From positions 7,415-71,414 of the forward strand of contig JALWRC010000095.1 of NCBI GenBank assembly GCA_027080725.1: a stretch of DNA of 64,000 bases, in the 5' to 3' direction. The notes beneath the pieces are model-generated. The model was not told where the DNA came from, searched no databases, and was given only the letters and a program-made list of their open reading frames with translations. The number at the start of each line of letters is the position of its first letter. The stretch's first letter is position 1. This document shows, piece by piece, positions 4,931 to 61,354 of this stretch. The DNA is from Saprospiraceae bacterium (GTDB taxonomy: Bacteria; Bacteroidota; Bacteroidia; Chitinophagales; Saprospiraceae). The position numbers and the translations under genes were made by a program.

Positions 4931-5070
4931 CCATTTCATATCAGGCAAAAGGAGTGCCTGCAGATATAACTATATCCACACGCTCGACGATTACCATTTC
5001 ATACCTGGTAAAAGTGGAGCGGACAGACAATACTTATCCCGTGCACCTGAAGATCACTATTTCATACCGG
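4931..5070 (-). repeat. Phased triplet of the GGTATGAAATGG word (cores at 4931, 4994, 5057; 63-bp spacing)
   Basis: Read directly. The units have a conserved ~19-nt head (GGTATGAAATrGTrATC) and divergent bodies. They lie in the convergent gap between icmF and the 1862-aa gene. Confidence 0.8.
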
Positions 5071-21094: not shown

Positions 21095-23872
21095 CTATTT
21101 GATATGCAAGAGCTGAACGCCCTCAAAACGGAATTTCGGAGGATGCATTTTGTCCTTTTGTTCCCACACGAGCCCCTGCCAGGTATTGTCGCAACCATTG
21201 GTGAGGATGACATTCTGCAGGATGAGTTGGGCATCATCTTCGAGGATAATGCGGCCATTGGCCGGGAGACTCACCGTCACGGGCGCTTCTTTTGTTCCGG
21301 ATATCTGTAGGACATGCCCGGACGGAATCCGGATATCCCGGTCCAATCCCCGCGATTGGGTCCATGTTTCTTTAAGGCCAATGGTCCGGGCGACGGAACC
21401 GAGGTCTTCGGGAGAGGCCGCCAATGCCCCTTCCCAAATGCCCCTTCCGAAAGTCGCGGCGCGCAATTTGTTCATGCAGTAATTGATACGCAATTCGGTT
21501 ACCCGGACATTGGGGAAGTCGCACATATGTTTCCAACGGGACATCCCTTTGTCTTTGAAGTAAATGCCGGCATCGGTTCCGATGTAAAGCATATCCTCCG
21601 TACCGTTCTGGTAGACGATGTCGTTGACGGGTAGATTGGAGAGGGAACCCTCCGGGTCGGCATTCGTCCAGTGGTCCCCTCCGTCCTCCGTCTTCCAAAC
21701 CTTTATGCCGGGCTCATAACCCGTGAAGGTGATCCAGGCTTTTAGTGGATTTTCCGGGTCAAATACCACCGATGTCAATGCAGGAATCTCCAGGCTATCC
21801 CCTCGAAAGACCCTCGGCAGATAGTGCCGGTTGATGATACCACTGGCTTTGAGGCGCCCGGTGAGGTCCTTAAAGCAGGTGTCCTTCCGGTACCCATCGA
21901 TTCCGTCACACCCTCCTGTCGTGCTTAGGAAAAGATGGGATTGGACGACATACCCCTTCTTAAAGTCCTTCTGATATCCGTTGACGATGAGGTAGATGTA
22001 GTCGGGGTCAGAAGCGCAGATGTCGTATTCCGTCATTTGGCGCTTCCACCGGGCAGGGATGTATTTGCCGATATCCGAGCGCAGTACCCAAAGGCTATCC
22101 GCCGTATCGTTGCGCTTGGCCGGTCGATGCACTTTGCGTTCGTAAAGCTCGGTCATCGGTATCCAAACCCTGTCCGTGACCGGGTGGTTCTTCATTTGAA
22201 AGGACTTGATGAGGGGCAGTTTGCCGGTGGCCGGATCCCGGGGCAAAAGGCGCTTTATCCATTCGTTCTTCTGCCTTTTTGATATGAAATCGTAGGTCAT
22301 CAGGCGGTTGGACGAACCACTTCCCGCCCCAAATCCCAATCCACCTACCCAATCCACCTTGCCATTGTATCCGTCGCCTCCCTCGAACGTCGTCCACACT
22401 TTGCCGATGAGGACATCCGTGCCGTTGTCTTGGTTGCCGGTGATGATGTGATCCGGCCGGTCTGCCGCATCCCCAAACCGATGAATGGTCTTCACCTGCA
22501 ATCCCTCCGAGTCAAATTGCCATCCGGATGAACCGGCTCGGCTTACGGGTTTTTTGCTGATACCTCCATCCGTACCGGCATAAAGCGTCTTGCCATCCGG
22601 AGAAAAAACGAGGGTGTGCACATCGGCATGGTAGCCATTGCCGGAGTAGGATGAATATCCGCGAATATGGTGCATGTCTCCTCCGTACACCTTTGTGGTG
22701 CCGAAGAACAGGGTGTCGGCATTGCGGGGTGAAATCCCTATTGCTGTCCGTGTCGGGGTGGCCAACTCGAATGCACTGTAGGTCGTCGAATGGCGCAAAT
22801 GGTGCCATTTCATACCATCAAAATAGTAAATGTAATATTCCGGATGCCCGGAGTGCCCCACGATGTAGGCATACAATCGCTCCGGAGCGGCAGGGGTGAC
22901 CCCGATATTAATCCGGTCCACCTCAAATCCTTCGGACAAGGAGTCCAGCATTAGTCCGGTGCCGGGACCGGTCATACTCTGCCAATGCGCTCCCCCGTCC
23001 GTAGAGCGATAAATGTCCAAGCCGCTGGCGTAAAGCGTGTCGGGATGGGTCGGATGTAGCTCCAATCCCTTGAGTTGGCGATCCCGCTCGATGGTCGTGC
23101 CGGTAGCGGATATTTTTCTCCATTGGGGGAACGGTGCCTCGCGATCCGGACAGTAAAATATCCCCTCGCTGCTCACGATCCACATGCCCGGCGAACGCGG
23201 CGAAAGACGCACCTTACGAATCGCCCCTCCCTCCCGGAAGAACCCCAACAATGCCTCCTCCCGGCCATTTGCCGATTGCCAGTGAAGCCCACCGTCCCGG
23301 CTGCGAAAGACTCCGGCGGTGAAAATCGGGGTAAACTGACTCGAACTCCCGTCATCTGTGTTTTCTGCGTGGTGATTGGGGTTGTTTTCTCCATCCCCGG
23401 TCGTGACGAAAAGGGTGTTTTTATTCGCCGGGTCAATGGCCACATCCGATATCGAACTGTAAGGGAGTTGCCCTTGGCCGATGACATGCCATGCATGCCT
23501 CCCCTGTCGCTTCCAGAGGCCGCCGAAATTGCTGCCGGCATACATGACACTGTCGGTCTCATAATCGGGGCTGAAGGCGATGACGTGGATTTGCCCTTGC
23601 CCCTTGGAGGAGGTATAGCCCCCGGGGATGCCGGTCGGACCCAGACAATGCCATTGGGAATGATAGCAACCCGAATCCGCTCCGCCTAAGAAGGATATAG
23701 CGTAGCGCGTAATGTCCGGATCCGGTGGAAGCGTGTCGGTCCTGTTCTTATGGTATGAAATGGCACCATGTCCGGTGACGGCCAAATATCCGGCCCGGTC
23801 TCGTGACATGCTTATCCCGGACACCGCCCACATCCAAAATAATCCGAAAAACAGTAGGATAGTTCTTTGCAT
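21095..23872 (-). CDS. Secreted BNR/Asp-box repeat beta-propeller protein (sortilin/VPS10-like or glycosidase-like)
   Basis: Signal peptide MQRTILLFFGLFWMWAVSG. Repeated Asp-boxes SRDGGLHWQ, STDGGAHWQ and TEDGGDHW. Confidence 0.6.
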   Translation of the reverse strand: MQRTILLFFGLFWMWAVSGISMSRDRAGYLAVTGHGAISYHKNRTDTLPPDPDITRYAISFLGGADSGCYHSQWHCLGPTGIPGGYTSSKGQGQIHVIAFSPDYETDSVMYAGSNFGGLWKRQGRHAWHVIGQGQLPYSSISDVAIDPANKNTLFVTTGDGENNPNHHAENTDDGSSSQFTPIFTAGVFRSRDGGLHWQSANGREEALLGFFREGGAIRKVRLSPRSPGMWIVSSEGIFYCPDREAPFPQWRKISATGTTIERDRQLKGLELHPTHPDTLYASGLDIYRSTDGGAHWQSMTGPGTGLMLDSLSEGFEVDRINIGVTPAAPERLYAYIVGHSGHPEYYIYYFDGMKWHHLRHSTTYSAFELATPTRTAIGISPRNADTLFFGTTKVYGGDMHHIRGYSSYSGNGYHADVHTLVFSPDGKTLYAGTDGGISKKPVSRAGSSGWQFDSEGLQVKTIHRFGDAADRPDHIITGNQDNGTDVLIGKVWTTFEGGDGYNGKVDWVGGLGFGAGSGSSNRLMTYDFISKRQKNEWIKRLLPRDPATGKLPLIKSFQMKNHPVTDRVWIPMTELYERKVHRPAKRNDTADSLWVLRSDIGKYIPARWKRQMTEYDICASDPDYIYLIVNGYQKDFKKGYVVQSHLFLSTTGGCDGIDGYRKDTCFKDLTGRLKASGIINRHYLPRVFRGDSLEIPALTSVVFDPENPLKAWITFTGYEPGIKVWKTEDGGDHWTNADPEGSLSNLPVNDIVYQNGTEDMLYIGTDAGIYFKDKGMSRWKHMCDFPNVRVTELRINYCMNKLRAATFGRGIWEGALAASPEDLGSVARTIGLKETWTQSRGLDRDIRIPSGHVLQISGTKEAPVTVSLPANGRIILEDDAQLILQNVILTNGCDNTWQGLVWEQKDKMHPPKFRFEGVQLLHIK

Positions 23873-57165: not shown

Positions 57166-57545
57166 TCGCCACGGTGGCACAGGCTCCCCCCATCCCTACC
57201 GCCACAAAGGCACAGGCTCTACTCCTTCATAAACTGTGACGCCTCGGCGTTATATCAATCTGTACATCGTGTATATATTTATGATGAAGGAGAGGGGGGG
57301 CTTATGTTTCTCTAACTGTAGGGAATTTCATTAGGGTAATACTCAGCTAAATATAGAGTGTATCCCTACCGCCACGGCGGCACAGGCTCTCCTTTGGCTA
57401 AGTATTTACTATATTACTTGATGTATTTCAAAGGAGAAGAGCCTGTGCCGCTTTAGCGGTAGGTTAGGGGATGAGGTTGTTTAGACGGGATTCGGGATTT
57501 AGAGGGTGTATTCTCTCTTCCTATACCGCCACGGCGGCACAGGTT
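57166..57545. repeat. REP-like cluster: five copies of (CC)TACCGCCACGGCGGCACAGGCTC
   Basis: Copies at 57166-57187 (+), 57195-57220 (+), 57364-57390 (+), 57438-57470 (-) and 57523-57545 (+). Copies 3 and 4 form a long inverted repeat. Confidence 0.8.
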
Positions 57546-58371: not shown

Positions 58372-58490
58372 ACTTCACAATTATTAATGTGTTCGACAGG
58401 GTAAAGATAGGAAAAGCCCACCATTTCATACCTGATTTGATTAATTTTTTTATGTTTGGGAGTATTTTATCATATCACAAACATGCTCAT

Positions 58491-59978
58491 ATGGAGTCTT
58501 ACGGTTTTTTGTCTGTTCTACCCCCCGTTTTAGCCATTCTCCTGGCCATCCGGACCAAGCAGGTCTATGTTTCTTTGGTCTTCGGCATCGGCTTGGGCTG
58601 GTTGATTCTTTCGCACTGGAACCCGTGGGTGGGTTTTCTCAATACCATCGAAGCTTTTGTGAACGTATTTCAATCTCGGGGCAATACCCGAACCATCATG
58701 TTTAGTGCACTCGTGGGAAGTCTCATCGTGCTGATACAACGCTCGGGCGGTGTGCATGGGTTTATCGATGGGGTGGAGCGCTATCTCGAGCGCCTCGAGG
58801 GACGCGATATTCAGCATAAGCGCAGGTTTGTTCAGATGTTGGCGTGGCTGGTTGGCGTCATTGTCTTTGTAGAGACGAGCATCTCCTCTTTGACCGTGGG
58901 AACCCTTTTTCGCCCGATATTTGACAAATTGCACATCTCGAGGGAAAAGCTGGCTTACATAGCGGATGCGAGTTCGGCTGCCACTTCGATTATGATACCC
59001 TTTAATGCTTGGGGGGCTTTTATCATGGGACTATTGATAACGCAGGGCTTCGACGAGCCGTTTACGGCGATGTTTCGCTCCATGCCGTACAATTTCTACC
59101 CCATATTGACGCTGGCCATGGTACCCATCCTCGTCTGGTGGTCTTTGGACTTTGGCCCGATGAAAAAGGCGGAACTCCGCGCCAATACCACCGGAAAAGT
59201 CATCGCCGACGGAGCGAAACCCATGATAAGTGAGGACCTCCTCCATGTCGAACCCGTAGAGGGTAAGCCTCGACGGATGATGAACATGCTTATCCCTATC
59301 GGTGTCATGGTAGGGATGATGCCCGTGATGCTTTCGATTACCGGATGGCAAGATGCCGTCACTGCCAACCCCGATGCCGGAACCTTTGCGACCATCCTCA
59401 CCGCTATAGGTAAGGGGTCCGGATCGACCTCTGTGCTGGTGTCCGTCATTTTAGCGATATTGGTGTGCATGTTGCTCTACTGGGGGCAGCGTCTGATGGG
59501 GTTTCTGGAGATGGTGGAACTCTCGATTAAGGGCCTCTCCAATATGATGCCGCTGGCTTTGCTCATGCTTCTCGCCTTTGCCATCGGAGCTGTGTGCAAA
59601 TCCCTTGGGACCGGCCAATATGTAGCCGAGGTAGCCAAATCCTGGTTGTCGCCCGCTCTCGTTCCGTCCATCGTTTTTGTCGTAAGTGCGTTTATCGCCT
59701 TTTCTACCGGCACCTCCTGGGGGACCTTTGCGATTATGATTCCCATCGCCGTGCCCATGGCGCAGACCATGGATGTCAATGTCTATATGGCCATCGCAGC
59801 GGCTTTGGGCGGGGGCGTTTATGGCGACCACAGTTCGCCGATATCCGACACCACGATTATATCATCCATGGCTTCCGCGAGCGACCATATCGACCATGTC
59901 AACACCCAAATGCCCTACGCCCTTGTCGCCGGGGGCATATCTGTCGTCCTGTATTTGATATTGGGTTTTATCCGGTAG
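58491..59978 (+). CDS. Na+/H+ antiporter NhaC-family membrane protein
   Basis: ORF 58359..59978 trimmed to MESYGFLSVLPPVLAILLAIRTKQ. It is a polytopic protein with NhaC-like sequence. Confidence 0.75.
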   Translation: MESYGFLSVLPPVLAILLAIRTKQVYVSLVFGIGLGWLILSHWNPWVGFLNTIEAFVNVFQSRGNTRTIMFSALVGSLIVLIQRSGGVHGFIDGVERYLERLEGRDIQHKRRFVQMLAWLVGVIVFVETSISSLTVGTLFRPIFDKLHISREKLAYIADASSAATSIMIPFNAWGAFIMGLLITQGFDEPFTAMFRSMPYNFYPILTLAMVPILVWWSLDFGPMKKAELRANTTGKVIADGAKPMISEDLLHVEPVEGKPRRMMNMLIPIGVMVGMMPVMLSITGWQDAVTANPDAGTFATILTAIGKGSGSTSVLVSVILAILVCMLLYWGQRLMGFLEMVELSIKGLSNMMPLALLMLLAFAIGAVCKSLGTGQYVAEVAKSWLSPALVPSIVFVVSAFIAFSTGTSWGTFAIMIPIAVPMAQTMDVNVYMAIAAALGGGVYGDHSSPISDTTIISSMASASDHIDHVNTQMPYALVAGGISVVLYLILGFIR

Positions 59979-59987
59979 AGGATGTGC

Positions 59988-60145
59988 AGGTATGAAATGG
60001 TGGAGATTGGTGTTGTGGTGGACCATCTTGCTATCTGATATGGATCCTGTTCTTTTCCGGTATGAAATGGTGGAGTTGTCGTTGTACACAAGACATTTCA
60101 TCTTCTGAAGTGCCTTTGGTTTTTTTCGGTATGAAATGGCGGGCG
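59988..60145 (+). repeat. Phased triplet of the GGTATGAAATGG word (cores at 59991, 60061, 60130; 70- and 69-bp spacing)
   Basis: Read directly. It starts 13 bp after the nhaC-like stop, and the bodies between the heads are divergent. Confidence 0.8.
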
Positions 60146-60728
60146 GTAGTAGGTTAAAGCCCAATTCGACGCTACCTGATTTTCTGTATGATGCCGACCG
60201 GTTGGTGAAATGCACCCGGAAATACAGTTGGGGATAAGAATATCCGGCAATGATTTACTTTGTAGAATAAATTCATTGTGCTAAGCAATGGGAAATTTTA
60301 GATTTAGCTCCGTCCTATATGCAGTATAGGCGCACGCGAAATTTATATCAACTAAAATCAGCGTTACAGTTCTACATGAAGAAAGTACATTACTCGATTT
60401 AATATCCTTTTAGGGCTACGAGTTGTCTCTTTTGTTAGTCCTTACCTGAGATGTTGTTGACCAAAAGAGATGTTTCCTGGTTTGGAGAGTTTTTTTTACT
60501 GGCATTAAAGAGGAACGCACTAATTTATTGTGGACTCTGTTTTTTCCATAAGAGAATGCTGCAAAACCGTTAACTTTCTCAGATTTAAATCATTGTAACT
60601 CATGCATTGCGTAATATGAATATGTCTTCATCATAGTACCCATAAACTCTACAGTAAAATTCGAACTATCGATTTTATGCAAAATCAAAAATGATTTGCT
60701 CTTATAGCTTCATAAAATGAAAAGTATG

Positions 60729-60736
60729 TATATTTG
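60729..60736 (+). promoter_or_regulatory. -7 promoter box TAtaTTTG for tRNA-His
   Basis: Matches TAnnTTTG and ends 14 bp before the tRNA 5' end. Confidence 0.6.
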
Positions 60737-60749
60737 CGCTCTCAAAAAT

Positions 60750-60825
60750 GGTGGATGTAGCTCAGTTGGTTAGAGCGCTGGATTGTGGTTCCAGAGGTCG
60801 CCGGTTCAAATCCGGTCTTCCACCC
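60750..60825 (+). tRNA. tRNA-His (anticodon GTG), with encoded G-1
   Basis: Cloverleaf folded by hand. The anticodon stem is CTGGA/TCCAG, the loop is TTGTGGT, the T-loop is TTCAAAT, and an extra 5' G pairs with discriminator C. Confidence 0.9.
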
Positions 60826-60986
60826 TTTTTTGCCTTCTTGAGATACTTTATATGTCTGTATGTCAGATAGTTATCGCTTGTGAGCAGCGCCAAAAATGGC
60901 TAAAAATTTGGCAGAGTTTTGGCAGAGTTTTTTCTCAAGTGGGGTTTTTGTAAGGGGAATGTCCAATCGTTTACCTTCGCAGCCTC

Positions 60987-60994
60987 TAAGTTTG
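60987..60994 (+). promoter_or_regulatory. -7 promoter box TAagTTTG for tRNA-Ser
   Basis: Matches TAnnTTTG and ends 6 bp before the tRNA 5' end. Confidence 0.6.
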
Positions 60995-60999
60995 TATTC

Positions 61000-61087
61000 G
61001 GAGGAGTGGCAGAGCTGGTTGAATGCACCGGTCTTGAAAACCGGCGTACTCGAAAGGGTACCGGGGGTTCGAATCCCTCCTCCTCCG
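61000..61087 (+). tRNA. tRNA-Ser (anticodon TGA), long variable arm
   Basis: The acceptor stem is GGAGGAG/CTCCTCC, the anticodon stem CCGGT/ACCGG, the loop CTTGAAA and the T-loop TTCGAAT. The variable arm is 17 nt. Confidence 0.9.
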
Positions 61088-61093
61088 CTTTGT

Positions 61094-61132
61094 ACAAAAC
61101 CCATTCCGTACACGAATGGGTTTTGTGTTTTA
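61094..61132 (+). terminator. Intrinsic terminator after tRNA-Ser
   Basis: Perfect 13-bp stem ACAAAACCCATTC/GAATGGGTTTTGT followed by a T-rich tail. Confidence 0.75.
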
Positions 61133-61264
61133 TGGGGCACTCGCTAAGGTCGTTACTGCAATATTACTTTTGCGCGGAGCCCCAAAGTTGTCATCGGGAG
61201 ACTTTGGAACGGAGATTTAAAGAAGCTTTATCACCCGGGAGCGATTGGTTTAAACTTGGAAACT

Positions 61265-61284
61265 GTGCAGTTTGTAATGTACAC
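61265..61284 (+). promoter_or_regulatory. Copy of the 18-nt motif (GTGCAGTTTGTAATGTACAC, 2-nt insertion)
   Basis: Ends 37 bp upstream of the topA -7 box. Confidence 0.5.
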
Positions 61285-61321
61285 CTTTATATTCTTTCCT
61301 TGCCATTAGATGTTTTTTATC

Positions 61322-61329
61322 TACTTTTG
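61322..61329 (+). promoter_or_regulatory. -7 promoter box TActTTTG for topA
   Basis: Matches TAnnTTTG and lies 26 bp upstream of ATG 61355. Confidence 0.5.
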
Positions 61330-61354
61330 CCTTTCAATTAACAAAATGAACCAT

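What the first reader, a model, noticed from the sequence alone, without database searches (positions are those of the whole stretch)
59988..60145. Second phased triplet of the same word (70/69-bp spacing) directly after the nhaC-like gene
The heads are GGTATGAAATGGTGGAG (59989), GGTATGAAATGGTGGAG (60059) and GGTATGAAATGGCGGGC (60128). They are separated by unrelated ~50-nt bodies and begin 13 bp after the stop codon. A 600-bp AT-rich ORF-free stretch follows, leading to tRNA-His.

The architecture matches the 4931-5070 array but has a different period. That argues for a reiterated functional unit rather than a single ancient duplication.
Basis: seen in the sequence. Interest (0 to 1): 0.6.

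Follow-up and report, generated by a model that had tools for sequence, protein, structure and literature searches.

The report
Tandem trio of a genome-wide DNA word
The three evenly spaced heads after the nhaC-like gene are local copies of a 13-17 base DNA word that is scattered about 600 times through this Saprospiraceae-type genome, inside and between genes. It behaves like the DNA-uptake tags of Haemophilus and Neisseria, which I did not find described for this phylum in the papers I searched.

Summary
GGTATGAAATGG starts at 59989, 60059 and 60128 (spacing 70 and 69), beginning 10 nt after the nhaC-like stop codon.

The heads are not a local invention:
- The 11-mer core occurs 605 times in the 3.8-Mb genome, against about 2 expected.
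- It lies on both strands equally, and 58% of copies are inside ORFs, in five reading frames.
- It is evenly spread and scarcer in low-GC DNA.
- Among 150 sampled genera of the family, only this genus and one other carry it.
- It is kept at orthologous sites while the flanks diverge.

A sister strain (about 98.5% identical) has the same trio. There, words 1 and 2 are unchanged while the bodies differ by 9-21%.

The bodies occur nowhere else in the genome. They match no phage or plasmid and do not fold.

Phased same-strand trios occur 7 times genome-wide against 0.17 expected. They range from perfect duplicates to decayed ones. I therefore read the trio as an old tandem amplification of a word-plus-body unit, in which only the word stayed constrained.

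The word itself most resembles a DNA uptake signal. No type IV pilus genes were found, but the pilus-independent Riemerella-type competence genes are present. Uptake is untested.

Earlier scan notes report similar words in other Saprospiraceae. I could not reproduce one of them in this family sample.

The parts
58491..59978 (+). nhaC-like Na+/H+ antiporter gene (495 aa as called in public relatives; the longest ATG ORF starts at 58452); stop TAG at 59976-59978
   Evidence: ORF listing. Pfam PF03553 on 120 homologues and on the called gene in the sister strain.
59989..60005 (+). Word copy 1, GGTATGAAATGGTGGAG (13-nt core plus 3' extension)
   Evidence: Identical 13-mer in the sister strain. A single word sits at the same place in the same-genus species G001.
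60006..60058 (+). Body 1: unique sequence ending in a T-rich run (cctgttcttttcc)
   Evidence: Found only here in the genome. 12 of 58 positions differ from the sister strain. 44% identical to body 2 by my own count of the ungapped alignment; z = 1.9.
60059..60075 (+). Word copy 2, GGTATGAAATGGTGGAG, identical to copy 1 over 17 nt
   Evidence: Unchanged in the sister strain.
60076..60127 (+). Body 2: unique sequence ending in a T-rich run (cctttggtttttttc)
   Evidence: Found only here in the genome. 5 of 56 positions differ from the sister strain.
60128..60144 (+). Word copy 3, GGTATGAAATGGCGGGC, with a different 3' continuation
   Evidence: The sister strain has GGCATGAAATGG here, a one-base decay.
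58420..58432 (-). Solitary word copy in the radC / nhaC divergent spacer
   Evidence: Conserved in the sister strain and decayed to GTTATGAAATGCT in the species whose NhaC is 87% identical.
4931..5067 (-). Companion phased trio (63/63 bp) in a convergent gene gap
   Evidence: Bodies A1 and A2 keep residual similarity, z = 4.1, p = 0.005.
22803..22815 (-). Word copy inside the 925-aa gene, read as G-M-K-W
   Evidence: The exact DNA word is conserved in the G001 orthologue (64% aa identity) while the flanks differ.
23753..23765 (+). Word copy antisense inside the same 925-aa gene, read as A-I-S-Y
   Evidence: The exact word is conserved in the G001 orthologue, including four synonymous sites.
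60146..60750 (.). AT-rich, ORF-poor spacer between the trio and tRNA-His. It is not part of the array.
   Evidence: 98-100% identical in the sister strain. In G001 and in the 87% species different DNA (other genes) follows nhaC. No Rfam hit reaching a gathering score.
60751..60825 (+). tRNA-His (GTG)
   Evidence: ARAGORN and Rfam.

Best explanation
The trio is a small tandem array of a genome-wide, lineage-specific DNA word.

The motif. It is a T-rich run, then G-GTATGAAATGG-T-n-G-A, with some signal out to about +21. That is about 25-30 bp around a 13-bp core.

Shown:
- The word is hyper-abundant.
- It is independent of strand, reading frame and gene orientation.
- It is evenly spread and scarcer in low-GC DNA.
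- It is restricted to this genus and one other genus of the family.
- It is conserved at orthologous positions while the surrounding DNA diverges.

Inferred for this locus:
- One word sat just after the nhaC stop, as relatives still show.
- A unit of about 70 bp (word plus body) was tandemly amplified by slippage or unequal exchange between direct word copies. This gave word-body-word-body-word with equal spacing.
- The bodies, being unconstrained, decayed almost to randomness. The words were kept by selection or by a sequence-biased drive.

Inferred for the word:
- It is a DNA-level recognition signal that works like the uptake signal sequences of Pasteurellaceae and Neisseriaceae, marking the cell's own DNA for preferential uptake or recombination.
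- It would be read here by the pilus-independent Bacteroidota competence apparatus (CarboxypepD_reg outer-membrane protein, DUF5689/DUF5017 surface protein, triple-HhH protein, ComEC, DprA) rather than by a type IV pilus.

My confidence is about 0.8 that the trio is a duplicated cluster of the genome-wide word. It is about 0.4 that the word is an uptake signal.
For: Abundance and motif:
- 605 copies of the 11-mer against about 2 expected; 384 / 780 / 1362 13-mers at 0 / up to 1 / up to 2 mismatches.
- The extended motif is also seen in copies deep inside ORFs and in G001.

Placement:
- 354 of 605 copies lie in ORFs: 174 sense and 180 antisense, in five frames.
- There is no bias with GC skew or gene strand. 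20-kb bins are under-dispersed (mean 3.1, variance 2.3, p = 0.013). Density rises with GC, although the word itself is AT-rich.
- About 90% of copies sit in unique flanks.

Distribution among relatives:
- 440 and 345 copies of the 12-mer in the two species of the genus, 52 in genus g128 (836 within 2 mismatches of the 13-mer, against 51 in the control), and 0-6 in the other 148 genera.

Conservation:
- 6 of 14 alignable G001 words are exact in this genome, at about 70% DNA identity. The expectation is 2-5%, p below 3e-5.
- Both coding words of the 925-aa gene and the word after the nhaC stop are conserved.
- In the sister strain, 1 of 39 word positions changed against 24 of 137 neighbouring positions (Fisher p = 0.018). 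The 5.7-kb background is about 1.5% divergent.

Duplication:
- 7 phased same-strand trios against 0.17 expected.
- The excess is confined to same-strand pairs.
- The C81 array has two identical 29-nt units followed by a third word with a different continuation.
- A1-A2 z = 4.1 and B1-B2 z = 1.9, with the third body unrelated.
- Heads 1 and 2 are identical over 17 nt, and head 3 differs after 12.
- G001-type genomes have one word at this site, and the 87% species has none.

Competence genes:
- ComEC overlaps a 322-aa protein with three HHH_3 domains. A 917-aa protein with an N-terminal CarbopepD_reg hit (24.2 bits, below Pfam's 32.2-bit cut-off) is adjacent to a 645-aa DUF5689(x2)/DUF5017 protein. 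DprA is present.
- Apart from that weak hit, these are the domain types of the genes essential for pilus-free natural transformation in Riemerella anatipestifer (PMC8459023).
Against: Against an uptake signal:
- No uptake experiment exists.
- The classical receptor route was not found in this 100%-complete genome: no secretin, no PilB/PilT-type ATPase and no N-methyl pilin motif.
- The Riemerella-type genes are widespread in relatives that lack any hyper-abundant word, for example G003 and G009. Their presence is therefore not specific.
- Unlike DUS and USS, inverted word pairs are not terminators. The T-run precedes the word, and no terminator-like site was found at the locus.
- Density, about 1 per 3-6 kb, is several-fold lower than DUS or USS.
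- No viral contig carries more than one copy.

Against a duplication origin:
- The similarity of body 1 to body 2 is only marginal (p = 0.06).

An alternative reading:
- The locally raised divergence between strains could mean array instability or an imported tract rather than neutral decay.
Confidence: 0.55

Rival explanations
1. The word is the binding site of an abundant chromosomal protein, such as a nucleoid-associated, condensin-loading or global regulatory protein. Phased arrays like this one would be cooperative high-affinity loading sites. DNA uptake would play no part.
For: - Words are evenly spaced and independent of strand.
- The motif extends 25-30 bp, a typical protein footprint.
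- Words are conserved at orthologous sites.
- Direct-repeat spacing classes are over-represented at 20-39 and 60-79 bp.
- Seven perfect 26-bp head-to-head palindromes could seat dimers.
Against: - Array periods vary (20, 29, 37-41, 63, 65-78 bp) and do not share a helical phase.
- Arrays lie between unrelated housekeeping genes.
- G001 has a single word at this site.
- To my knowledge (recalled, not searched here), no architectural site system has hundreds of exact 13-mers inside coding DNA.
- No candidate protein was identified.
Confidence: 0.2
2. The word is a selfish or repair-driven iterated sequence with no cellular function. It would spread by biased gene conversion or by a miniature mobile mechanism, as is debated for the cyanobacterial HIP1 repeat. 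The trio would be a local pile-up.
For: - Hyper-abundance with roughly equal numbers of perfect and one-off copies, consistent with a balance between drive and mutation.
- Gains and losses between species occur by point substitution.
- Local clusters and duplications are common.
Against: - 58% of copies lie in ORFs without frame disruption, and orthologous copies encode the same residues. Insertion is therefore excluded for these.
- About 90% of flanks are unique, and the averaged flanks show no conserved terminal repeats or longer element.
- The word is asymmetric, unlike HIP1.
- Exact conservation across about 30% DNA divergence needs a sustained force.
Confidence: 0.15
3. The trio is a CRISPR-like or other spacer-bearing array, in which the approximately 52-nt bodies are acquired foreign sequences.
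For: The layout is regular, with a conserved head and an unrelated body of constant length. A second array in the window has another period.
Against: - The head is only 13-17 nt and is solitary in about 90% of its copies, more than half of them inside genes.
- The bodies match nothing in phages, plasmids or the rest of the genome.
- There is no repeat hairpin or stable fold.
- Flanking genes are radC, nhaC and topA, not cas genes.
- The sister strain has the same bodies changed by point mutation, with no spacer turnover.
Confidence: 0.02
4. The units are small RNA or micro-peptide genes. Each head contains ATG-AAA-TGG (M-K-W), and each body ends in a T-run.
For: An ATG lies inside every head and a T-rich run precedes the next head. 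The second unit reads through the third head in frame.
Against: - Spacings of 70 and 69 break the frame between units.
- Folding is no better than shuffled sequence (z = +1.1 and +0.6).
- There is no promoter-like or terminator-like site on the + strand and no Rfam family.
- Genome-wide, the word is neutral to gene orientation and used in five frames.
Confidence: 0.03

Closest known systems
Uptake signal sequence (USS) of Pasteurellaceae (Hin-type core AAGTGCGGT with AT-rich flanking segments)
   Same: - A short asymmetric core inside a longer, weaker motif with an A/T-rich flank.
- Hundreds of copies on both strands, in genes in several frames and between genes.
- Evenly spread.
- Lineage-restricted.
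- Conserved at homologous positions and gained or lost by point substitution.
   Different: - The density is several-fold lower.
- The A/T-rich flank is a single 5' T-run.
- No type IV pilus genes were found.
- Inverted pairs are not terminators.
- Uptake preference is untested.
- The phylum is different (Bacteroidota).
DNA uptake sequence (DUS) of Neisseriaceae and its dialects, bound by the minor pilin ComP (PMC3630211, PMC3868556)
   Same: - A 12-13-nt word specific to a clade.
- A variant form in a related genus: g128 favours T/C-GTATGAAATGGT and GGTATGAAATCGT.
- Enriched in resident rather than atypical-GC DNA (compare PMC2397512).
   Different: - No ComP-type pilin or secretin was found.
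- About half of DUS lie in terminators (bioRxiv 10.1101/2025.10.24.684340); that is not the case here.
- To my recollection (not checked here), phased direct arrays such as this trio are not a described DUS feature.
Pilus-independent natural transformation of Riemerella anatipestifer (Bacteroidota), PMC8459023
   Same: The same set of gene types is present: ComEC, a three-HhH periplasmic protein, a CarboxypepD_reg outer-membrane protein next to a DUF5689/DUF5017 protein, and DprA. The CarbopepD_reg hit is below Pfam's cut-off.
   Different: A term search of that paper found no mention of an uptake sequence for Riemerella. Competence of this organism is unknown. The genes also occur in relatives without a word.
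HIP1 (highly iterated palindrome GCGATCGC) of cyanobacteria
   Same: A hyper-abundant short word in coding and non-coding DNA whose function is debated. A preprint links it to transformation efficiency (bioRxiv 10.1101/2024.09.10.611283).
   Different: HIP1 is an 8-nt palindrome tied to methylation. This word is a 13-nt asymmetric core with flanks.
Mosaic repeat arrays: BIMEs (REP elements) of enterobacteria and NIMEs (dRS3 repeats) of Neisseria
   Same: A short conserved repeat alternates with differing inter-repeat segments in intergenic DNA.
   Different: This description of BIMEs and NIMEs is from my own knowledge, not checked here. In those arrays the linkers belong to recurring families and the repeats are palindromic and extragenic. 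Here the bodies are unique, the word is not palindromic, and 58% of copies are in ORFs.

Membership tests
DNA uptake enhancing sequences (USS/DUS) | A short word present in hundreds to thousands of copies, orders of magnitude above expectation | tested here: met
   605 copies of the 11-mer against about 2 expected. About 1280 non-chance 13-mers within 2 mismatches (1362 found, about 84 expected by my own estimate).
DNA uptake enhancing sequences (USS/DUS) | Both strands, inside and between genes, in several reading frames, with no replication-strand bias | tested here: met
   174 sense and 180 antisense copies in ORFs, in five frames. No association with GC skew.
DNA uptake enhancing sequences (USS/DUS) | Restricted to a clade, with variant forms (dialects) in related taxa | tested here: met
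   Found only in genus g1 and genus g128 among 150 genera sampled. g128 favours variants in the first base and at GG to CG.
DNA uptake enhancing sequences (USS/DUS) | Copies conserved at homologous positions; turnover by point substitution, not insertion | tested here: met
   6 of 14 copies exact at about 70% DNA identity. Coding copies align without indels. Words are intact in the sister strain amid about 15% local divergence.
DNA uptake enhancing sequences (USS/DUS) | Frequent inverted pairs that serve as transcription terminators | tested here: not met
   The T-run lies 5' of the word, so head-to-head pairs read T-run / hairpin / A-run on both strands. No terminator-like site was found at the locus.
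DNA uptake enhancing sequences (USS/DUS) | Type IV pilus uptake machine with a pilin receptor (ComP in Neisseria; ComN proposed in Pasteurellaceae) | tested here: not met
   No PF00263 secretin, PF00437 ATPase or PF07963 pilin motif in a 100%-complete genome. The first two were also not found in G001.
DNA uptake enhancing sequences (USS/DUS) | Word-bearing DNA is preferentially taken up or transforms better | not testable with these tools
   This needs a competent culture and competition assays.
CRISPR array | Identical repeats of 23-55 nt, unique spacers of foreign origin, and a leader and/or cas genes nearby | tested here: not met
   The repeat is 13-17 nt and mostly solitary or genic. The bodies have no phage or plasmid match. 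The neighbours are radC, nhaC and topA.
REP/BIME or MITE-type mobile repeats | An extragenic, palindromic or TIR-bounded element with a recurring body | tested here: not met
   58% of copies are in ORFs. The word is not self-complementary. The bodies are unique. About 90% of flanks are unique.
Iteron or phased operator array | Direct repeats at fixed, helically phased spacing next to the replicon or gene they control | tested here: inconclusive
   Direct orientation and equal spacing are met here. Periods differ between arrays (20-78 bp), neighbours are unrelated housekeeping genes, and G001 has one copy at this site.

The most novel reading that the evidence does not exclude
GGTATGAAATGGT, with its 5' T-run, is a genuine DNA uptake or self-recognition signal. 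It is read by the pilus-independent Bacteroidota transformation apparatus, with the DUF5689/DUF5017 surface protein or its CarboxypepD_reg partner as receptor. I found no uptake-signal system described outside Proteobacteria in the papers I searched, so this may be the first, and it would use a different receptor class. Tandem arrays such as this trio would then be by-products of, or boosters for, word-directed uptake and recombination. The 170-bp tract around it that is hyper-divergent between strains would be an imported segment.
Probability: 0.35. Interest if true: 0.85.

Novelty: new variant of a known kind. Interest (0 to 1): 0.6.

Why it matters
As far as I know and as the papers I searched describe, sequence-specific DNA uptake is known only from Pasteurellaceae and Neisseriaceae, and in both it is tied to type IV pili. 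A word with the same genomic hallmarks, in a Bacteroidota lineage where I found no pilus genes but did find the Riemerella-type competence genes, has two implications. Self-DNA tagging may have evolved independently on a different uptake machine. It also offers a concrete word and candidate receptor genes to test.

The trio itself is a useful natural experiment. Duplicated units decayed, and even diverged about 15% between two strains that are otherwise about 98.5% identical. The 13-mers stayed intact, which isolates the constrained part of the motif.

For annotation, it warns that such phased arrays are neither CRISPR-like loci nor sRNA genes.

Tried and rejected
Local structure and homology:
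- Tandem Repeats Finder and MAFFT on the units found no array call and no alignable bodies.
- Rfam on 58-62 kb found only the two tRNAs.
- RNA folding of both strands was no better than shuffles.
- The sigma-70 promoter and terminator scan found nothing on the + strand.

Bodies as spacers or reusable modules:
- BLAST against the whole genome, phages and plasmids found nothing.

The word as part of a larger mobile element:
- All-against-all BLAST of the flanks linked only about 63 of 604 word windows to another word window, mostly through unrelated dispersed repeats or neighbouring words.

A special gene next to the densest arrays:
- The neighbours are hutU/hutH, ftsH/rsfS, sufB/sufC, gcvT and similar (named by eye from the translations).

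Chi- or KOPS-like polarity:
- No skew association.

Dialects in other genera:
- 100-kb k-mer profiles of four relatives found no comparable word in three. The fourth has a different 14-nt palindrome.

Earlier-notes word:
- ATACTGAGGGG is not abundant in any of the 150 genera of this family sample.

Phages carrying the word:
- 96 viral contigs have one match each, which I estimate to be about chance level.

Other sources:
- An exact scan of metagenome contigs for head plus body 1 found nothing.
- A literature search for the word found only unrelated primers.

Full report
**1. Observation**

GGTATGAAATGGTGGAG is at 59989 and 60059, and GGTATGAAATGGCGGGC is at 60128, giving spacings of 70 and 69. 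The nhaC-like ORF ends with TAG at 59976-59978, so the first head starts 10 nt after the stop. The gene is a PF03553 Na+/H+ antiporter; public relatives call it at 495 aa. RadC lies upstream on the other strand. tRNA-His, tRNA-Ser and topoisomerase I lie downstream. MAFFT aligns only the heads, and Tandem Repeats Finder is silent here.

**2. The head is a genome-wide word**

- In the window, the 11-mer core with up to 1 mismatch occurs 29 times against 1.75 expected.
- In the 3.80-Mb genome (110 contigs, 44.9% G+C), GTATGAAATGG occurs 605 times against about 2 expected. The 13-mer GGTATGAAATGGT occurs 384 / 780 / 1362 times at 0 / up to 1 / up to 2 mismatches.
- The aligned copies give an extended motif: a T-rich run at -8 to -2, G at -1, the core, T at +11, G at +13, A at +14, and a weak signal out to about +21. 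Nothing is conserved beyond that.
- The same flanks are seen in copies at least 60 nt inside ORFs and in the second species, so they belong to the motif rather than to intergenic context.

**3. Where the word sits**

- With a crude ORF map (85% of the genome), 354 of 605 copies are inside ORFs. Of these, 174 are sense and 180 antisense, in five of six frames. The sixth frame would contain TGA.
- Intergenic copies show no preferred orientation toward either neighbour.
- Orientation does not follow GC skew or local gene strand. Counts per 20-kb bin are under-dispersed (mean 3.1, variance 2.3, lower-tail p = 0.013). Density rises from 0.7 to 2.3 per 10 kb as bin G+C rises, although the word itself is AT-rich.
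- About 90% of copies have flanks with no similarity to any other copy. The word is therefore not the end of a larger mobile element.

**4. Who has it**

- The same-genus species G001 (about 71% DNA identity in nhaC) has 244 exact 13-mers. Twenty-nine other genomes of the family and order have 0-1.
- In a sample of one genome from each of 150 genera of the family, only this genus (440 and 345 12-mers) and genus g128 (52 exact 12-mers) stand out. g128 has 836 13-mers within 2 mismatches against 51 for the reversed control. All others have 0-6.
- g128 is more distant (64-68% DNA identity in nhaC and topA). It favours variants such as TGTATGAAATGGT and GGTATGAAATCGT, a dialect-like shift.
- K-mer profiles of 100 kb from four other genera showed no comparable word in three. 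The fourth (G011) has an unrelated 14-nt palindrome.

**5. The word is conserved as DNA**

- In the 925-aa gene, both words are identical in G001 although the proteins are only 64% identical and the flanks differ. One is read DGMKW and the other, antisense, AISY.
- Of 14 G001 words whose surroundings align to this genome, 6 are exact. Others differ by 1-4 substitutions without gaps, and a few fall in indels. Exact retention is expected for 2-5% at this divergence (p below 3e-5).
- Words therefore persist, and they are gained and lost by point substitution. That excludes insertion for the genic copies.

**6. The trio in relatives**

- A sister assembly (GCA_027078505.1, NhaC 99% identical) aligns at about 98.5% over 5.7 kb and carries the same trio.
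- The stretch from the last nhaC codons to the third word is the most divergent part of the alignment, with 25 differences in about 170 nt.
  - 7 lie in the 23 columns before word 1.
  - 12 of 58 positions differ in body 1.
  - 5 of 56 positions differ in body 2.
  - Words 1 and 2 are unchanged.
  - Word 3 has one change (GGCATG).
  - The next 60 nt are identical.
- Word positions against neighbouring positions give 1/39 against 24/137, Fisher p = 0.018.
- G001-type genomes have a single word 6 nt after the nhaC stop, followed by unrelated DNA. A species whose NhaC is 87% identical has no word there. It does keep a decayed copy at the radC-nhaC spacer, where this genome has an intact one.
- The locus is therefore not strain-specific. 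The ancestral state was probably one word, and the trio arose in this species.

**7. Why the copies are phased**

- Genome-wide there are 7 same-strand trios with near-equal spacing, against 0.17 expected when each word is shuffled within its own gene or spacer.
- Same-strand neighbour pairs are in excess at 20-39 bp (21 against 9.6) and at 60-79 bp (17 against 6.8). Opposite-strand pairs are not in excess. That asymmetry is what tandem duplication predicts.
- The arrays form an age series:
  - On contig C81, two identical 29-nt units are followed by a third word with a different continuation.
  - In the companion array at 4931-5067, bodies A1 and A2 retain similarity (z = 4.1, p = 0.005).
  - Here, B1 and B2 are 44% identical by my own count (z = 1.9, p = 0.06) and share a similar start and a T-rich end.
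  - In every case the sequence after the third word is unrelated.
- Heads 1 and 2 share 17 nt, and head 3 diverges after 12.
- Array periods differ (20, 29, 37-41, 63, 65-78 bp). This argues against a fixed functional phasing.
- The arrays sit between unrelated housekeeping genes, such as hutU/hutH, sufB/sufC and ftsH/rsfS (named by eye from the translations).

**8. What the bodies are not**

- They occur nowhere else in the genome.
- They match no phage or plasmid record.
- They do not fold better than shuffled sequence on either strand.
- They contain no Rfam family.
- They carry no terminator-like site and no + strand promoter-like site.
- The 70/69 spacing breaks any common reading frame.

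**9. What the word most likely does**

The combination of features matches the two established uptake-signal systems, USS and DUS (PMC2817400, PMC2397512, PMC3630211; bioRxiv 10.1101/2025.10.24.684340). Those features are:
- an asymmetric core in a longer motif with an A/T-rich flank;
- hundreds of copies, neutral to strand and frame;
- even spacing;
- depletion in atypical DNA;
- clade restriction with a variant in a related genus;
- orthologous conservation with substitutional turnover.

Two defining features fail. Inverted pairs are not terminators, and the genome has no secretin, PilB/T-type ATPase or pilin motif.

However, natural transformation in the Bacteroidota species Riemerella anatipestifer is pilus-independent. 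It needs ComEC, DprA, a three-HhH protein, a CarboxypepD_reg outer-membrane protein and an adjacent DUF5689/DUF5017 protein (PMC8459023). This genome has all of these gene types:
- ComEC overlapping a 322-aa triple-HHH_3 gene;
- a 917-aa protein with an N-terminal CarbopepD_reg hit (24.2 bits, below Pfam's 32.2-bit cut-off) next to a 645-aa DUF5689(x2)/DUF5017 protein;
- DprA.

These genes are also common in relatives without a word. They make the idea feasible but do not prove it. I put the uptake-signal reading at about 0.4, an architectural or regulatory binding site at about 0.2, and a function-less driven repeat at about 0.15.

**10. Earlier notes of this scan**

- Notes on this window had already flagged the genome-wide word and the 63-bp trio. 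I re-derived both.
- Notes on other genomes describe different hyper-abundant words in Saprospiraceae-like clades. I tested one, ATACTGAGGGG. It is not abundant in any of the 150 genera sampled from this family, so I could not confirm a family-wide pattern here.

**11. Limits**

- Gene calls are a crude longest-ORF map.
- G001 was sampled on contigs chosen because they carry words. This does not affect the conservation test.
- Only 5.7 kb of the sister strain was available.

Noticed in passing
window 59966-60131: Between this genome and the sister strain (about 98.5% identical overall), a tract of about 170 bp from the last nhaC codons to word 3 is about 15% divergent. The stop codon also changes from TAG to TAA. 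The next 600 bp of non-coding DNA are 98-100% identical. This looks like a short imported tract or a local mutational hotspot bounded by the words.
   Followed up: partly
window 57195-57545: A different GC-rich repeat (CCCTACCGCCACGGCGGCACAGGCTC) occurs 3-4 times in both orientations. This genome has about 157 bp (roughly 57367-57523) that the sister strain lacks, between two direct copies of that repeat.
   Followed up: partly
own genome, for example C10:25205-25230, C110:3685-3710, C15:43022-43047, C17:4580-4605, C80:120235-120260: Perfect 26-bp palindromes made of two words head to head (GGTATGAAATGGTACCATTTCATACC) occur about 7 times, typically with a T-run before and an A-run after. This is the reverse of a bidirectional terminator.
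   Followed up: partly
own genome C64:74840-79562 and C64:94645-97736: A 917-aa protein with a weak N-terminal CarboxypepD_reg hit lies next to a DUF5689(x2)/DUF5017 protein. About 15 kb downstream on the same contig, comEC overlaps a triple-HhH gene. Two words lie inside comEC. This is the domain set of the Riemerella pilus-independent competence genes.
   Followed up: partly
G011:C3:100001-200000 (L056-L060): Another genus of the family (58.5% G+C) carries a hyper-abundant 14-nt perfect palindrome, TCGTCGGCCGACGA. Its 12-mer GTCGGCCGACGA occurs 14 times per 100 kb.
   Followed up: no
window 60301-60337: Inside the AT-rich spacer, a short palindromic motif (CCTATATGCAGTATAGG and surroundings) has 23-36-nt matches on four other contigs (C16, C34, C100, C2). 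It is a separate small dispersed repeat.
   Followed up: no
window 60919-61341: The 140-aa ORF that is called as a gene in the sister assembly overlaps tRNA-Ser and has no Pfam hit. It is probably a spurious call.
   Followed up: no
own genome C64:100000-120000: A 20-kb bin with 39% G+C contains no word at all and holds capsule or exopolysaccharide-type genes (judged by eye from the translations). It is a likely acquired island, consistent with the word marking resident DNA.
   Followed up: no
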